DNA of 64,000 nt from Chloroflexota bacterium. Its GTDB lineage: Bacteria; Chloroflexota; Limnocylindria; Limnocylindrales; CSP1-4. Position 1 is the first letter of the stretch. Every line of letters begins with the position of its first letter. The translations under genes and the position numbers were made by a program. The stretch is taken from assembly GCA_005889475.1 (NCBI GenBank), contig VBGT01000026.1, positions 17,544 to 81,543 of the forward strand, written 5' to 3'. The notes beneath the pieces were generated by a model. It saw only the letters and a list, made by a program, of their open reading frames with translations. It did not search any database and was not told the origin of the DNA. Positions 53,619 to 58,315 of this stretch are shown here, piece by piece.

Positions 53619-55934
53619 CTACGGGAGCCGGAACACCTCGCCCTGGCCGTTCGCGAAGATCGGCTCGTAGCCCGCGGCGAGCACCTGGTCGCGGATGCCG
53701 TCGGGCAGCCCTACGGGCTCGAGGACGACGTACAGGTAGTCGCCCGATGCCAGGAAGCGGGGCAGCGCGTCGAGGCCGTACAGCCGACCACCCGCTGTGT
53801 GCTGGCTCACCTCGGGATCGAGGCTGACGAACGTCTCGGTGACACCGTCGAACACGCCCAATGGCGTCGATACCCACTGCTGGAAGCTCTTCGCGAGGTG
53901 AAGGACCGGGGTGTCGTGGGCAAGCCGGCCGGCGTCGATTTCTGCCCGCACCGCGTCCAGGATCTCGTGCCGCGGCGCGTCGACCACGAATCGCGAGTCC
54001 GGGAAGCCCTGCCAGAAGCCGATCGCGGCGAAGTGCAGGTCGATGGCGAACGTCTCCGACCAGCGGTGTTCGCCGAGGTGGTACGCGTTGATCGAGGCGC
54101 AGTCTTTGCGGCAGTTGCTGTCGTCGCCGCTGTTCCCGAACCGGAGCGGCAACGCGGCCACCACCACGAACGCGGCAACGAGTCCCGCCCGGGCGAGCCA
54201 CGGCTGCGGCGCGCGCGTCCAGGCGAAAGCAAGCGCGGAGGCCGCGCCTGCCGCCGCGATGGACGACAACCAGTAGTGGACGGTCTTCGGGACCTCATAG
54301 CGCAGCGCGCTCCCGAGCAACCCCAGGTCATCCGGCAGGGCCTGCGTCAGCACCACGGCTGCGGACCCGACGACGAGCCCGACGACCACGAGAGCCCAGC
54401 GCGCGCCCCGGCTGCCAAGGAAGGAACCGATCACGATAACGATGAGGAGCAGGCCGCTGGATTCCAGGGCGAGTAGACCGGCTGTGCCCGCAGCCACCGG
54501 CAGGCGGTCGAGCACCAGCCGCCCGATGGCGAATGCGCCGGCGATGGCGATCCCGATCGCGAGCAGGATCGCCGGGCCCAGCGATCGGGCGAATCTGGTC
54601 AACCGCTCCTGCAGCGCGCTACTCCGCGCGACGGTCCGGCCAACCCCGACTCCGATCGCAATCGCGATCGGCAGCCCGGCCCCGAGCGCGAGGGTCGGCA
54701 GCGAGACCCCGATCGTCGTCGCCAGCTGCGGCACCGCCACGAGCCCTGCCGTGACGCCGGCGACCGCGGCGGCCGGCGCGAGCTCGGTGGGTCGGAGGAC
54801 GGCCACGACGCCGACGGTGACGATCGCGAAGAAGCCGATGACGGGATGGACGAGCGCCGCCGCGCCGATCGCAAGCCCGATCACCACGCCTCGACCGATC
54901 CTCCACGGGTCTGCGCCGGCCGGTCGACCGGCGGAATCCCCAGGTGCTGCTTCCCCGCGGAGGGCCTCCGCCGCAACGGCCAGGCCGAGGCACACGAGGG
55001 GCCCGACGACCACTGTCCCGCGCGCATCCGCGAGGCGGGCGAACGGCTGGCTGAGTGCGAACGCGAGCAACGCCCACGGCCCGACCGACGGGTCGCTACG
55101 GCGGATCGCGCTCGCGAGTCGGTGGACCCCGGCCGCGACGAGCACCGTCTCCGGGAGGATGAAGCCGGCGATGGCCGCACCCCCCGAGAGGCCGGTCATG
55201 GTCGCGATGGCGCCGAGGAGGCCGTCGTAGCCGAGGACCGTTCGGGACGGGCCGAAGATCGGTGACTGGGTCGCAGTCAGCGGCGAGAACCAGCCGAACG
55301 TCCGCAGGTGCTCCACCGGGCCGACGTAGTTCGGCAACACGTCGATGAACGGCACCACCGGGCTCGCGAGCTGGAGGATGACCGGCCCGGCCCACACGAT
55401 CGCAACGAGCGCGGCGAGCGGCCAAGACCCGACCGCAGCGATCGCATCCCGCCAACCGCCGAATGCGACAAGCTGCCAGCTCCGGCGTGAGATGAGCGGA
55501 ATCACGAACGCGGCGGCGATCACCGCGACATCGATCGCAATGAGGATCGGCGCCCTGAACAGCCCGAACGCGCCGAGCGTGCCCAGGAGCAGCGTGTCCT
55601 TGAGCACCGCGGCAACCATCGAGGCGAGCACCGCCTCGGCGATCGAATCGAACGGGGTCCGACGTGCGGCACGAGCGAGGACCAGGCCCGTCGCAATCTC
55701 GAGAACGCTTGCGCCCAGGACGAGCAACGCGGCCGGAAGCGTGACCGACAGCTGCCTCAGCACGCCGTCGAGCGCCTGGTCGAGGTCGAACCCGAGCTTG
55801 TCCGAGGCCTGGAGCCAGGTCAGGCCGATCAGGAACGCCGCGAGGCCCGCAACACCGACGAGATCCAGTGCAATTGCTTCGCGGCCCCGGAACCGGCCCT
55901 CGGACATCGCGCGGATGGTACGAGGCGCGCGCAT
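53619..55934 (-). CDS. large polytopic membrane protein with a C-terminal soluble domain, function unknown
   Basis: 771 aa. The first ~560 aa hold at least 14 hydrophobic segments and the last ~200 aa are soluble. GC3 is high. I recognise no motif. Confidence 0.6.
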   Translation of the reverse strand: MRAPRTIRAMSEGRFRGREAIALDLVGVAGLAAFLIGLTWLQASDKLGFDLDQALDGVLRQLSVTLPAALLVLGASVLEIATGLVLARAARRTPFDSIAEAVLASMVAAVLKDTLLLGTLGAFGLFRAPILIAIDVAVIAAAFVIPLISRRSWQLVAFGGWRDAIAAVGSWPLAALVAIVWAGPVILQLASPVVPFIDVLPNYVGPVEHLRTFGWFSPLTATQSPIFGPSRTVLGYDGLLGAIATMTGLSGGAAIAGFILPETVLVAAGVHRLASAIRRSDPSVGPWALLAFALSQPFARLADARGTVVVGPLVCLGLAVAAEALRGEAAPGDSAGRPAGADPWRIGRGVVIGLAIGAAALVHPVIGFFAIVTVGVVAVLRPTELAPAAAVAGVTAGLVAVPQLATTIGVSLPTLALGAGLPIAIAIGVGVGRTVARSSALQERLTRFARSLGPAILLAIGIAIAGAFAIGRLVLDRLPVAAGTAGLLALESSGLLLIVIVIGSFLGSRGARWALVVVGLVVGSAAVVLTQALPDDLGLLGSALRYEVPKTVHYWLSSIAAAGAASALAFAWTRAPQPWLARAGLVAAFVVVAALPLRFGNSGDDSNCRKDCASINAYHLGEHRWSETFAIDLHFAAIGFWQGFPDSRFVVDAPRHEILDAVRAEIDAGRLAHDTPVLHLAKSFQQWVSTPLGVFDGVTETFVSLDPEVSQHTAGGRLYGLDALPRFLASGDYLYVVLEPVGLPDGIRDQVLAAGYEPIFANGQGEVFRLP

Positions 55935-55955
55935 GCCTCAGTCGGTCAGAGGAAT

Positions 55956-56031
55956 TGGAGCGGGCGGCGGGATTCGAACCCGCGGCATCCTGCTTGGAGG
56001 GCAGGCACTCTTCCAGCTGAGTTACGCCCGC
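55956..56031 (-). tRNA. tRNA-Gly (anticodon UCC), CCA encoded
   Basis: The minus strand reads GCGGGCG-TA-ACTC-AGCTGGAA-GAGT-G-CCTGC-CCTCCAA-GCAGG-ATGCC-GCGGG-TTCGAAT-CCCGC-CGCCCGC-T-CCA. This folds as a full 76-nt cloverleaf. Confidence 0.93.
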
Positions 56032-56661
56032 TCAGGGTGTCCGGCTCAGTCGCTGCTCAAAAGTTCGAAGCCGGTGGCAGTTCGCGCAGACGATATCGCA
56101 CTTGCTGGCCTCAACCAACATCCGATCCGTGCTCCCGCCGATCATCCTGGTGACACTGCGGATCTTGGAAGACGGATCCCGATGGTCGAAGTCCATGGCG
56201 CACTGCGCGACTCGGCCACCGCAATCGAGACACGGCACGGATCGGAGCTGATCCAGCAAGTCTGCGTTGTAGCGCGAATGCGCACGCCGTTGCTCCATCC
56301 TGCGCGACGAGTCGGGAGTGCGAGACGCAAGCCACTGACGGTGAAGCTTCCGCGTTCGGAGCCGGTGGCAATTTGCACAGACGACATCGCACTTCGCCGC
56401 TTCGGCGAGCAACTGCGCACGACTCTTCAGAGTGGCTCGTCCCGTCAGAAGGTTGAACGCCTTTTCCCGCGGAACGCGATGGTCGAAGTCCATCTGATGT
56501 CCGGCGAATTGACCCCCGCAATCGGCGCAGGGAACCTCGCGAAGCTCCCGCAGGAATGCCGTGGTCGCGGCTTGTCTACGCCTGACGCGCTCGATTTCGC
56601 ATGCCCGATTGCTCGCGTAGTAGCGAACGTTTGTCGGCCGTTGGTTACGTGTTTTGGGCAC
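56032..56661 (-). CDS. tandem double HNH (His-Me finger) endonuclease-like protein
   Basis: There are two internal repeats of CxDCGG...MDFDHR.P...KCD.VCANCHRLRT. GC3 is markedly lower than in neighbouring genes. The GTG start is at 56661 and the stop abuts the tRNA 5' end. Confidence 0.75.
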   Translation of the reverse strand: MPKTRNQRPTNVRYYASNRACEIERVRRRQAATTAFLRELREVPCADCGGQFAGHQMDFDHRVPREKAFNLLTGRATLKSRAQLLAEAAKCDVVCANCHRLRTRKLHRQWLASRTPDSSRRMEQRRAHSRYNADLLDQLRSVPCLDCGGRVAQCAMDFDHRDPSSKIRSVTRMIGGSTDRMLVEASKCDIVCANCHRLRTFEQRLSRTP

Positions 56662-56666
56662 GTCCT

Positions 56667-56695
56667 ATTTTAGAACGCACGTTCTCTTTCTTCAA
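56667..56695 (-). promoter_or_regulatory. sigma-70-like promoter TTGAAG-17 nt-TAAAAT, positioned for a leaderless HNH transcript
   Basis: The minus strand reads TTGAAG AAAGAGAACGTGCGTTC TAAAAT AGGAC GTG. The -10 ends 5 nt before the GTG start codon. Confidence 0.5.
56672..56685. promoter_or_regulatory. LexA (Cheo/SOS) box-like palindrome AGAAC-GCAC-GTTCT in the promoter spacer
   Basis: An exact GAAC-N4-GTTC with symmetric flanks lies at 56672-56685, inside the 17-nt spacer of the predicted promoter. Confidence 0.5.
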
Positions 56696-56806
56696 GACCT
56701 GCGCTGCGAAGAAGCGAGTCGGCTGCATCGGTCAACGCCGAAAGCCGTGTTTGGCAGGACGTTCGTCGCGGGTGACGTCTCGCCCGAGTCGCGTACGCTC
56801 CCCGCC

Positions 56807-58315
<1,509 letters not shown>

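What the first reader, a model, noticed from the sequence alone, without database searches (positions are those of the whole stretch)
55956..56700. Low-GC3 tandem double-HNH gene abutting tRNA-Gly, driven by an apparently leaderless promoter with a LexA-box-like palindrome in its spacer
Seen in the sequence:
- ORF 56661->56032 contains two complete copies of a zinc-finger HNH module.
- Copy 1 is PCADCGG...MDFDHRVP...KCDVVCANCHRLRT and copy 2 is PCLDCGG...MDFDHRDP...KCDIVCANCHRLRT.
- It uses many A/T-ending codons (AAA, ACA, CGT, CAA, GTT, AAT, GCA), unlike its ~70% GC neighbours.
- Its TGA (56032-56034) directly abuts the 5' end of tRNA-Gly (56031).
- Upstream, the minus strand reads TTGAAG-17 nt-TAAAAT-AGGAC-GTG. 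The -10 therefore ends 5 nt before the start codon, which implies a leaderless mRNA.
- The 17-nt spacer holds the perfect palindrome AGAAC-GCAC-GTTCT (56672-56685).

Established knowledge:
- GAAC-N4-GTTC is the core of the Gram-positive, actinobacterial and Chloroflexi LexA operator.
- Leaderless transcripts are common in actinobacteria.
- Some HNH-domain genes (the M. tuberculosis REP13E12 family) have been reported as LexA-regulated.

Inference:
- This is a horizontally acquired, SOS-inducible nuclease.
- Its pseudo-dimeric architecture could supply two active sites, and so a double-strand cut, from one polypeptide.
- It may be co-transcribed with tRNA-Gly.
Basis: partly seen in the sequence, partly recalled or inferred. 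Interest (0 to 1): 0.66.

Follow-up and report, generated by a model that had tools for sequence, protein, structure and literature searches.

The report
SOS-controlled double HNH nuclease abutting tRNA-Gly
A small gene for a two-headed DNA-cutting enzyme, apparently switched on by DNA damage and running straight into a glycine tRNA gene, is a fixed feature across Limnocylindria (Chloroflexota) rather than a recent foreign insertion, and it looks like a tamed relative of the selfish nucleases found among phage tRNA genes.

Summary
Its meaning comes from comparison with relatives.

- **Conserved unit.** The 209-aa tandem-HNH gene plus tRNA-Gly(UCC) is conserved in Limnocylindria-type Chloroflexota. 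There are 343 matches in species-representative genomes, and the tRNA follows in 78 of 81 loci. Flanking genes differ between species.
- **Not recent HGT.** The protein is under purifying selection (dN/dS about 0.1-0.25). Low GC3 is a trait of the whole family.
- **LexA box.** GAAC-N4-GTTC sits directly against the -10 box in 70 of 79 species. The start codon lies 5-7 nt after the -10, so the mRNA is probably leaderless. Four lexA genes of the same class, retrieved by protein identity, carry the same box in the same promoter position.
- **ORF runs into the tRNA.** The stop codon lies inside or beyond the tRNA start in 56 of 68 intact loci. RNase P cleavage would therefore remove it.
- **Possible internal tRNA promoter.** A nucleotide-level conserved TATCGT lies within HNH module 2.
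- **Closest relatives.** These are single-module phage HNH genes embedded in tRNA arrays.

Verdict: this is a domesticated, tRNA-linked, homing-type nuclease that has joined the SOS regulon. It is a new variant of known kinds.

The parts
56690..56695 (-). P1 -35 hexamer TTGAAG
   Evidence: A subclade of relatives has a strong ATTGACA at the same position.
56672..56685 (.). LexA-box-like palindrome AGAAC-N4-GTTCT (core GAAC-N4-GTTC at 56673-56684) filling the -35/-10 spacer
   Evidence: It is perfect in 41 and 7/8 in 29 of 79 orthologous promoters, always directly against the -10. Only 2 comparable sites occur in 437 kb of flanks. The same motif sits in the same position in 4 of 4 lexA promoters of the class retrieved by protein identity.
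56667..56672 (-). P1 -10 hexamer TAAAAT, 5 nt before the GTG start (probably leaderless)
   Evidence: The family consensus is T61 A62 n n n T50 of 67. The start codon lies 5-7 nt downstream in 59 of 67.
56032..56661 (-). Tandem-HNH nuclease CDS (209 aa plus TGA)
   Evidence: (PHROG HNH endonuclease, E 2e-45). AF2 model pLDDT 94.6. dN/dS about 0.1-0.25.
56347..56661 (-). HNH module 1 (residues 1-105: helix, CxxC, DFDH, CxxCxNCH)
   Evidence: D60 and H61 are invariant; N97 is nearly invariant; H99 is invariant.
56035..56346 (-). HNH module 2 (residues 106-209)
   Evidence: D159 is nearly invariant; H160 is invariant; N194 is nearly invariant; H196 is invariant.
56090..56103 (-). Nucleotide-level conserved string AAGTGCGATATCGT inside module 2. 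The candidate internal -10 (TATCGT, 56090-56095) lies 58 nt upstream of tRNA +1.
   Evidence: This is the strongest synonymous-site anomaly of the ORF. D189 is GAT 59: GAC 6, while the paralogous D92 is GAC 51: GAT 13. TATCGT is present in 63 of 78 loci, 42-65 nt before the tRNA. The best internal promoter-like match clusters here in about 49 of 67 loci. Function is inferred.
55956..56031 (-). tRNA-Gly(UCC), whose 5' end directly abuts the ORF stop codon
   Evidence: ARAGORN; Rfam tRNA, 66.7 bits. The same tRNA follows the gene in 78 of 81 loci, and the other 3 end at a contig edge.

Best explanation
This is a domesticated, tRNA-associated HNH nuclease gene that has become a member of the SOS regulon in Limnocylindria-type Chloroflexota.

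**Proposed mechanism**
1. In undamaged cells LexA sits on the GAAC-N4-GTTC box, which fills the spacer of promoter P1 and touches its -10.
2. DNA damage, acting through RecA-stimulated LexA self-cleavage, frees P1.
3. P1 then makes a leaderless mRNA that begins at or next to the start codon.
4. That mRNA encodes a 209-aa protein built from two HNH (beta-beta-alpha-metal, zinc-finger) modules, so one chain carries two nuclease active sites.
5. Transcription runs on into tRNA-Gly(UCC), because the ORF ends at or inside the tRNA.
6. RNase P maturation of the tRNA 5' end cuts the mRNA at or before its stop codon. This probably limits how much nuclease each transcript can yield.
7. The tRNA probably also has its own promoter embedded in module 2 (TATCGT). 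That would lock the two genes together physically.

**Shown by sequence and comparison:** the anatomy, the conservation, the match to lexA operators, purifying selection, and kinship with phage HNH genes in tRNA arrays.

**Inferred:** LexA binding and induction, the transcription start site, nuclease activity and its substrate, the processing brake, and the internal promoter.
For: **Conserved unit**
- 343 relatives in species-representative genomes.
- tRNA-Gly(UCC) lies immediately downstream in 57 of 60 loci and 78 of 81. The exceptions end at contig edges.
- Flanking genes are shared only with the closest relatives.

**Selection**
- Invariant or nearly invariant catalytic and zinc residues in both modules.
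- dN/dS 0.09-0.25 in close pairs.

**Operator**
- 70 of 79 promoters carry the box (at least 7/8 match) directly against the -10.
- Only 2 comparable sites occur in 437 kb of flanks.
- LexA proteins named 'Candidatus Limnocylindria' exist.
- Four independent lexA loci fetched by protein identity all read ATTGACA-N3-GAACATCyGTTC-gGTAccgT-N6-ATG/GTG.
- One of them (L208) comes from the same MAG as HNH locus L063.

**Leaderless start:**

**ORF-tRNA overlap**
- The stop codon lies at tRNA nt 8-10 in 32 loci and at nt 13-15 in 11.
- It overlaps the tRNA by 1 nt in 2 loci and abuts it in 7.
- There is no stop until past the tRNA in 11 loci.
- No proximal tRNA promoter is present, unlike tRNA-Glu in the same genomes.

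**Internal element:**

**Ancestry**
- Phage homologs are single modules of about 115 aa.
- 7 of 7 inspected lie inside tRNA gene arrays.
- The PegLeg ORF overlaps tRNA-Met by 10 nt.

**Precedent:** T4 segB, whose stop codon is separated from the ORF by tRNA-Arg maturation (PMC2330249).
Against: - There is no experimental datum: no transcription start site, induction, LexA binding or nuclease assay.
- lexA and recA are not in the 64-kb window or the HNH loci. LexA in this particular genome is therefore inferred from its class.
- The box is not significant within the window alone.
- Three to five lineages lack the box (L031, L046, L065).
- A few short-read MAG loci carry frameshifts (L074, L078-L080). 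The gene can therefore be de-regulated or lost.
- Pfam HNH is below threshold (14.8 against 21.4 bits), and PDB fold matches are weak. Nuclease identity rests on motifs and on PHROG profiles.
- If the internal promoter is real, the tRNA need not depend on P1. The overlap may then be a neutral legacy and not a brake.
- The candidate internal promoter has a weak -35.
Confidence: 0.6

Rival explanations
1. It is still an active selfish homing endonuclease gene. It sits next to its target, the tRNA-Gly(UCC) locus, and spreads by cutting alleles that lack it. LexA control only times expression to when recombination repair is available.
For: - The nearest homologs are free-standing phage HNH genes inside tRNA arrays.
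- ORF-tRNA overlap is typical of such genes (PegLeg; T4 segB).
- The composition is persistently atypical.
- Flanks vary while the pair stays together.
Against: - The gene is found across the class at a single site, with divergence similar to neighbouring genes. HNH identity is 63-78% against 62-71% for the adjacent membrane protein in the same loci.
- dN/dS is about 0.1-0.25 over deep divergence.
- A fixed homing gene has no empty sites left to invade and should decay.
- Presence/absence polymorphism was not tested, because only loci that contain the gene were fetched.
Confidence: 0.2
2. The conserved palindrome is the operator of some regulator other than LexA, or is only a promoter-spacer feature, so the gene is not DNA-damage inducible.
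For: - No binding or expression data exist.
- The right flank of the box is constrained by the -10 anyway.
- The box is not significant in the window alone.
Against: - The core matches the Cheo-type GAAC-N4-GTTC LexA motif (PMC3323433).
- The same core sits in the same -35/-10 position in 4 of 4 lexA promoters of the class, which head lexA-alkZ-dinB operons.
- It is almost absent elsewhere in 437 kb.
Confidence: 0.08
3. One reading: a recently acquired foreign gene inserted next to tRNA-Gly, as genomic islands are.
For: - The gene is a low GC and GC3 outlier in the window.
- tRNA genes are common integration sites (general knowledge).
Against: - The same gene sits at the same tRNA in 78 of 81 loci from different species.
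- Low GC is shared by 72 of 73 orthologs.
- No integrase or direct repeats accompany it.
- The gene lies 5' of the tRNA and overlaps it, not 3' as islands do.
Confidence: 0.03
4. The DNA is kept mainly because it carries the promoter or leader of tRNA-Gly(UCC), and the encoded protein has no role of its own.
For: - There is no proximal tRNA promoter.
- A conserved nucleotide string lies inside module 2.
Against: - Purifying selection acts on the whole protein, including module 1, about 400 nt from the tRNA.
- The LexA-controlled leaderless start is conserved.
Confidence: 0.07

Closest known systems
Phage T4 SegB (free-standing homing endonuclease in the T4 tRNA gene cluster) and phage T5 F-TflI/II/IV (endonucleases in the T5 tRNA region)
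   Same: - It is a small stand-alone nuclease gene wedged against tRNA genes.
- The segB ORF's stop codon is separated from its last codon by maturation of the downstream tRNA-Arg. This was proposed as a brake on expression (PMC2330249).
- Here the stop codon abuts or lies inside tRNA-Gly.
   Different: - SegB is a GIY-YIG enzyme of a lytic phage with sporadic distribution.
- This gene is a tandem HNH, chromosomal, fixed across a bacterial class, and carries a LexA box.
- Homing activity has not been shown here.
Single-module HNH endonucleases of actinobacteriophages (Mycobacterium phage Myrna gp144, PegLeg gp102, Streptomyces phage StarPlatinum gp106 and others)
   Same: - These are the closest sequence relatives with annotation. 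Each module of the query aligns to them at 35-44% identity.
- All 7 inspected lie inside tRNA arrays.
- PegLeg gp102 overlaps tRNA-Met by 10 nt.
   Different: - They have one module of about 115-150 aa, not two fused modules.
- They are phage-borne.
- They sit next to various tRNAs.
- No LexA box was examined for them.
SOS-induced HNH endonucleases of Mycobacterium tuberculosis (REP13E12-type)
   Same: - They are putative HNH nucleases induced by DNA damage in a RecA-dependent way, in an organism with a GAAC-N4-GTTC SOS box (PMC8151990; PMC3323433).
   Different: - They are larger proteins with a different architecture. DUF222 plus HNH is from my own knowledge.
- Nothing but weak HNH and zinc-ribbon hits was found here.
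- They are repeat-element associated and not linked to a tRNA.
LexA-regulated HNH DNase toxins (colicins E7/E9) and the SOS-induced endonuclease BapE of Caulobacter
   Same: - They are nucleases kept silent by LexA and released on DNA damage. This is from my own knowledge; BapE was only located in the literature.
   Different: - Colicins carry receptor and translocation domains, an adjacent immunity gene and a lysis gene. None of these is present here.
- BapE is not known to be an HNH tandem or tRNA-linked.
Phage P1 Ref
   Same: - It is an HNH nuclease whose action is tied to the RecA/SOS context (PMC4713147).
   Different: - Ref has a single HNH domain, is RecA-filament dependent and is phage-encoded.
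- No sequence relationship was tested.

Membership tests
HNH (beta-beta-alpha-metal) nuclease superfamily | Catalytic D-H ... N ... H motif with a CxxC...CxxC zinc site, once per module | tested here: met
   Both modules carry PCxDCG, MDFDH and KCDxVCANCH. In a 58-sequence alignment, D60, H61, H99, H160, H196 and the cysteines are invariant, and N97 and N194 are nearly invariant.
HNH (beta-beta-alpha-metal) nuclease superfamily | Significant match to a curated family profile | tested here: inconclusive
   Pfam HNH PF01844 scores 14.8 bits, below the 21.4 cut-off. NCBIfam gives nothing relevant. PHROG HNH endonuclease families match at E 2e-45 and 4e-42, with two stretches each.
HNH (beta-beta-alpha-metal) nuclease superfamily | HNH fold | tested here: inconclusive
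   The AF2 model is confident (pLDDT 94.6, pTM 0.85). Foldseek against the PDB gives only weak hits, all E > 0.3: Cas9 HNH, Gme HNH 4h9d, Cap5, T4 endonuclease VII and ZRANB3 HNH. A profile search of the PDB finds 4h9d at E 0.31.
HNH (beta-beta-alpha-metal) nuclease superfamily | Metal-dependent nuclease activity | not testable with these tools
   Needs purified protein.
LexA (SOS) regulon member | The organism's lineage encodes LexA | tested here: met
   LexA proteins (LexA_DNA_bind plus Peptidase_S24) named Candidatus Limnocylindria. L208 lexA and L063 HNH come from the same MAG, GCA_035935465.1. This is not shown for the window's own genome.
LexA (SOS) regulon member | The site matches the LexA box defined from the lineage's own lexA promoters | tested here: met
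   lexA promoters read GAACATCyGTTC between TTGACA and the -10 in 4 of 4 loci fetched by protein identity. HNH sites read GAAC(A/G)nnTGTTC.
LexA (SOS) regulon member | The site overlaps core promoter elements and is conserved in orthologous promoters | tested here: met
   It fills the spacer and touches the -10 in 70 of 79 species. The background is 2 sites in 437 kb.
LexA (SOS) regulon member | LexA binding and DNA-damage induction | not testable with these tools
   Needs EMSA or ChIP, and RNA-seq with and without mitomycin C.
Leaderless mRNA | The -10 lies about 5-8 nt upstream of the start codon, with no room for a Shine-Dalgarno sequence | tested here: met
   5 nt in the window. 5-7 nt in 59 of 67 orthologs.
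Leaderless mRNA | The mapped transcription start site coincides with the start codon | not testable with these tools
   Needs 5'-RACE or dRNA-seq.
Free-standing homing endonuclease gene | Stand-alone nuclease gene of a homing-type family placed next to a conserved target gene | tested here: met
   An HNH gene sits against tRNA-Gly. Phage homologs lie in tRNA arrays.
Free-standing homing endonuclease gene | Sporadic presence or absence among close relatives, with gene and host trees incongruent | tested here: inconclusive
   The gene is widespread and looks vertical: 343 matches, divergence tracks the neighbouring gene, and dN/dS is low.
Free-standing homing endonuclease gene | Site-specific cleavage of the allele that lacks the gene | not testable with these tools
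   Needs enzyme and substrate.
Colicin/pyocin-type SOS nuclease toxin | Adjacent immunity gene, and translocation or receptor domains | tested here: not met
   The protein is only two HNH modules. The next feature is the tRNA, and downstream genes are not conserved.
Genomic island integrated at a tRNA gene | Integrase, flanking direct repeats, insertion at the tRNA 3' end, patchy distribution | tested here: not met
   The gene lies 5' of the tRNA and overlaps it. No integrase appears among the neighbours. It is present across the class.

The most novel reading that the evidence does not exclude
The ORF-tRNA overlap is a working part of the system and not a relic.

- RNase P maturation of tRNA-Gly(UCC) cuts the SOS-induced, leaderless nuclease mRNA at or before its stop codon. 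Processed transcripts are therefore non-stop mRNAs whose products are removed by ribosome rescue.
- Active nuclease would then appear only when strong or prolonged LexA derepression outruns tRNA processing. This would make it a damage-dose threshold switch for a dangerous enzyme.
- A corollary is that P1 also raises the supply of the rare-codon tRNA-Gly(UCC) during the SOS response.
Probability: 0.3. Interest if true: 0.75.

Novelty: new variant of a known kind. Interest (0 to 1): 0.6.

Why it matters
- **An uncharacterised SOS regulon.** The finding gives a concrete, testable member of the SOS regulon in an abundant but uncultured soil and freshwater class (Limnocylindria). The LexA box, the leaderless promoter layout and the lexA-alkZ-dinB operon were read directly from genomes.
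- **A likely case of domestication.** A tRNA-cluster homing-type HNH, a kind known from phages, appears to have been duplicated into a two-active-site enzyme. It was then fixed next to one host tRNA and placed under LexA control.
- **A natural test case for mRNA-tRNA co-transcripts.** Here tRNA processing removes the stop codon of a protein-coding gene. This idea was proposed for T4 segB and could be tested here for a link between RNase P, ribosome rescue and nuclease dosage.
- **Annotation errors.** Relatives are mis-named 'cytochrome c552', and their ORFs are sometimes extended through the tRNA.

Tried and rejected
- **Recent HGT or island:** rejected.
- **Window-only significance of the palindrome:** rejected. 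Chance expectation is 0.8.
- **A second LexA-like site in the window (39171):** it lies inside an ORF and is a chance match.
- **lexA or recA in the window and HNH loci:** searched by tblastn with remembered B. subtilis and E. coli sequences; none found.
- **The Dehalococcoides LexA paper:** not held. The claim that Chloroflexi LexA uses the Gram-positive box rests on my own knowledge.
- **Intrinsic terminator after the tRNA:** none conserved; median fold z is -0.1.
- **Other RNA families in the region:** only the tRNA.
- **Close solved structure:** none.
- **tRNA linkage of distant low-GC tandem-HNH proteins (P0134, P0208):** not found. They sit in phage-like contigs without tRNAs, so tRNA linkage is not universal for the architecture.
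- **tRNA-Gly(UCC) downstream of other, non-Limnocylindria lexA classes (L113, L155, L159, L192):** no HNH lies between them, so this synteny is unrelated.
Full report
**1. Observation**

- On the minus strand a GTG at 56661 opens a 209-codon frame ending in TGA at 56032-56034.
- The protein holds two copies of a zinc-finger HNH module: PCxDCGG, MDFDHR, then KCD(V/I)VCANCHRLRT. The copies are 53% identical over 81 residues.
- ARAGORN and Rfam place tRNA-Gly(UCC) at 55956-56031 on the same strand. The stop codon therefore touches tRNA nucleotide +1.
- Upstream lie TTGAAG, 17 nt, TAAAAT, AGGAC, GTG. This is the only sigma-70-like match in 1.4 kb.
- The spacer holds AGAACGTGCGTTCT at 56672-56685.
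- GC drops to about 0.62 over the gene.
- GC3 is 0.70 against 0.853 +/- 0.059 for 44 ORFs of the window.
- One GAAC-N4-GTTC per 64 kb is what chance gives (0.8 expected). The window alone therefore cannot show that the palindrome matters.

**2. The gene is not a lone insertion**

- A protein search returned more than 7,000 relatives. The best 120 are all about 209 aa and 58-88% identical. Every named one comes from Candidatus Limnocylindria/Limnocylindrales or 'Chloroflexi' MAGs.
- A scan of species-representative genomes found 343 encoding stretches, of which 80 were fetched.
- tRNA-Gly(UCC) follows on the same strand in 57 of 60 loci scanned and in 78 of 81 including the window. The three exceptions stop at a contig edge.
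- The window's neighbours are a Ser/Thr kinase upstream and a 771-aa membrane protein downstream. They recur only in the closest relatives, and another 383-kb contig has quite different neighbours.
- In those close relatives HNH identity (63-78%) tracks that of the adjacent membrane protein (62-71%).
- Close pairs give dN/dS of 0.09-0.25.
- The catalytic D-H, N and H residues and the zinc cysteines of both modules are invariant or nearly so in a 58-sequence alignment.
- The lower GC (0.63 against 0.69) recurs in 72 of 73 loci. The lower GC3 (0.72 against 0.83) recurs in 70 of 73.
- The compositional oddity is therefore real but belongs to the family.

**3. The promoter and its palindrome are conserved**

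- I aligned the 80 nt upstream of each ortholog.
- A perfect GAAC-N4-GTTC is present in 41 of 79 loci and a 7/8 match in 29 more. It is always directly followed by a TAnnnT -10 box.
- The -10 consensus is T61 A62 n n n T50 of 67. The first in-frame ATG or GTG lies 5-7 nt after it in 59 of 67 loci. This leaves no room for a ribosome-binding site, which is the signature of a leaderless mRNA.
- One subclade adds a strong ATTGACA -35.
- A weight matrix built from these sites finds only two other sites of at least 14 bits in 437 kb of flanking DNA, on both strands.
- It finds only one other site above 10 bits in the window, and that one lies inside an ORF.
- A few lineages (L031, L046, L065) have lost the box while keeping the -35.

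**4. Is it the LexA box of these organisms?**

- No lexA or recA lies in the window or the HNH loci.
- I therefore scanned metagenome contigs for GAAC-N4-GTTC followed 70-100 nt later by the LexA motif PP[ST]xREI. This returned 120 lexA loci.
- One class has the N-terminus MTKQDQQRAERILAFIRE and a promoter reading TTGACA-GAACATCCGTTC-ggTTAgcct followed by a leaderless GTG. A protein search identified it as 'transcriptional repressor LexA [Candidatus Limnocylindria bacterium]'.
- Those loci were selected for having a box. To avoid that bias, I fetched further lexA loci purely by protein identity (P0376, P0326, P0361, P0311).
- All four independent loci read ATTGACA-N3-GAACATCyGTTC-gGTAccgT-N6-ATG/GTG.
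- One of them (L208) comes from the same MAG as HNH locus L063.
- These lexA genes head operons with an AlkZ-like glycosylase and/or a DinB-type polymerase.
- GAAC-N4-GTTC is the established LexA motif of Firmicutes and Actinobacteria (PMC3323433). That it also serves a Chloroflexi LexA (Dehalococcoides) is my recollection, because the paper was not held.
- The HNH promoter thus carries the lineage's LexA box in the same promoter position as lexA itself. I rate LexA control at about 0.85, still without any binding or expression data.

**5. The ORF runs into the tRNA**

Among the 68 loci with an uninterrupted frame and a tRNA:

| Position of the stop codon | Loci |
|---|---|
| TAG formed by tRNA nucleotides 8-10 | 32 |
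| tRNA nucleotides 13-15 | 11 |
| Overlaps tRNA +1 by one base | 2 |
| Abuts the tRNA, as in the window | 7 |
| No stop until beyond the tRNA | 11 |
| Separated by a 1-14 nt gap | 5 |

- Ten further loci are frameshifted or truncated. Six of these are long-read MAGs, where indel errors are likely.
- Transcription from P1 must therefore enter the tRNA.
- RNase P cleavage at tRNA +1 would leave 56 of 68 mRNAs without a complete stop codon.
- The same layout is described for phage T4 segB. There, tRNA-Arg maturation cuts between the last codon and the stop codon, and the authors proposed that this restrains expression. They noted a similar situation for the T5 endonucleases F-TflI and F-TflII in the tRNA region (PMC2330249).
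- No conserved terminator hairpin follows the tRNA.

**6. A second signal inside the gene**

- tRNA-Glu(CTC) genes in the same genomes carry a sharply conserved TAGAAT/TACAAT ending 13 nt before the tRNA.
- tRNA-Gly has nothing comparable in its last 40 nt.
- A codon-by-codon scan of 66 orthologs shows the strongest synonymous-site anomaly of the whole ORF at Asp189 in module 2. It is GAT 59: GAC 6. The gene-wide ratio is GAC 0.60, and the paralogous Asp92 is GAC 51: GAT 13.
- The neighbouring codons are also fixed. Together they give AAGTGCGATATCGT at window 56090-56103.
- TATCGT is present in 63 of 78 loci, and a TAnnnT in 69, lying 42-65 nt before the tRNA.
- The best internal promoter-like match falls there in about 49 of 67 loci.
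- lexA promoters of the class use TACCGT or TATGGT as their -10. TATCGT is therefore a plausible internal -10 for the tRNA, although its -35 is weak.
- If real, it would explain why an essential tRNA can sit behind a LexA-repressed promoter, and why the two genes cannot be separated.
- An RNase E-type site or a protein-binding palindrome (CGATATCG) are not excluded.

**7. What the protein is and where it came from**

- Pfam HNH is below threshold, and NCBIfam finds nothing relevant.
- PHROG HNH-endonuclease families match at E 2e-45 and 4e-42, each with two stretches.
- The AlphaFold model is confident (pLDDT 94.6).
- PDB comparisons give only weak HNH hits: Cas9 HNH, Gme HNH, Cap5, T4 endonuclease VII and ZRANB3.
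- An exhaustive search finds 23,969 clusters (50% identity) at E <= 0.001 but only 77 at E <= 1e-30.
- Distant tandem-HNH proteins exist in low-GC, phage-like contigs without tRNAs. The tandem architecture is therefore not unique.
- In annotated phages the matches are single modules of about 300 nt, to which both query modules align.
- All seven actinophage examples inspected lie inside tRNA gene arrays: StarPlatinum gp106, Myrna gp144 (10 nt before tRNA-Tyr), Amabiko 192, Cursive 112, PegLeg 102 (overlapping tRNA-Met by 10 nt), A3Wally 161 and Sebata 227.
- The family's usual habitat is thus the free-standing, homing-type niche among tRNA genes.

**8. Synthesis**

- The best reading is that a tRNA-associated HNH gene of phage type was duplicated in tandem. 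It became fixed 5' of the host tRNA-Gly(UCC) early in Limnocylindria evolution.
- It is now kept by selection as a LexA-repressed, leaderless, two-active-site nuclease. Its output is probably curbed by tRNA processing.
- What it cuts is unknown. A role in processing damaged or branched DNA, or in damage-triggered self-destruction or defence, cannot be separated here.
- The main rival is an element that still homes. It explains the ancestry, but not class-wide fixation with strong purifying selection.
- Precedents exist for each component:
  - SOS-induced HNH genes in M. tuberculosis (PMC8151990).
  - LexA-controlled HNH colicins (my own knowledge).
  - segB and the F-Tfl enzymes in tRNA clusters.
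- The combination is new, so I class it as a new variant of known kinds, with interest 0.6.

Noticed in passing
L202-L211 (lexA loci), e.g. L208:3900-7000: Limnocylindria lexA looks leaderless, with its start codon 14 nt after the box. It heads a compact operon with an AlkZ-like crosslink glycosylase and/or a DinB-type polymerase. An MscS-like channel gene is transcribed divergently.
   Followed up: partly
L015, L023, L042, L047, L058, L059 and others, about 1.1-1.8 kb upstream of the HNH gene on the opposite strand: tRNA-Glu(CTC) genes carry a sharply conserved -10 (TAGAAT/TACAAT) ending 13 nt before tRNA +1, with no obvious -35. This serves as a reference for tRNA promoters in this class.
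   Followed up: partly
window 56647-56663: A 5-bp inverted repeat ACGTG-N7-CACGT spans the GTG start codon of the HNH gene. The scan lists it as a terminator-like hairpin on the + strand. Its conservation in relatives was not checked.
   Followed up: no
window 55934-55955, between tRNA-Gly and the next gene: The 771-aa membrane-protein gene (53619-55934, -) starts only 21 nt after the tRNA 3' end on the same strand, with no terminator between them. It may be co-transcribed in this genome and its closest relatives (L001-L006, L074) but not in others.
   Followed up: partly
proteins P0011, P0022, P0043, P0046, P0061, P0082; P0122: JGI names several family members 'formate-dependent nitrite reductase cytochrome c552 subunit', probably because of the CxxCH motifs. 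Some gene calls extend the ORF through the tRNA, giving tails such as AGVIQRSECLPSKEDVTGSSPVTRS.
   Followed up: no
L001, L007, L014, L017, L056: SMAG MAG records that carry the Limnocylindria-type HNH-tRNA locus are titled Patescibacteria, Eisenbacteria, Angelobacter or Acidiferrales. L001 also shares the window's neighbouring genes. The bins are probably mislabelled or contaminated.
   Followed up: no
L113, L129, L136, L137, L145, L155, L159, L192: Another lexA class in the metagenome scan has two tandem Cheo-type boxes about 18 nt apart. In four of these loci a tRNA-Gly(UCC) lies about 0.7-0.9 kb downstream of lexA, after a LysM-like gene and with no HNH gene between.
   Followed up: partly
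window 56654-58315 (+): The divergent neighbour is a Ser/Thr protein kinase with a C-terminal FIMAH domain. Its real start is probably near 56807, which leaves an intergenic region of about 145 bp shared with P1.
   Followed up: no
L074, L078, L079, L080 (short-read MAGs) and L055, L068, L071-L073, L075 (long-read MAGs): The HNH frame is interrupted in these loci, yet the 3' segment with AAGTGCGATATCGT and the tRNA is intact. These are either assembly indels or real pseudogenes that keep the tRNA-proximal part.
   Followed up: no
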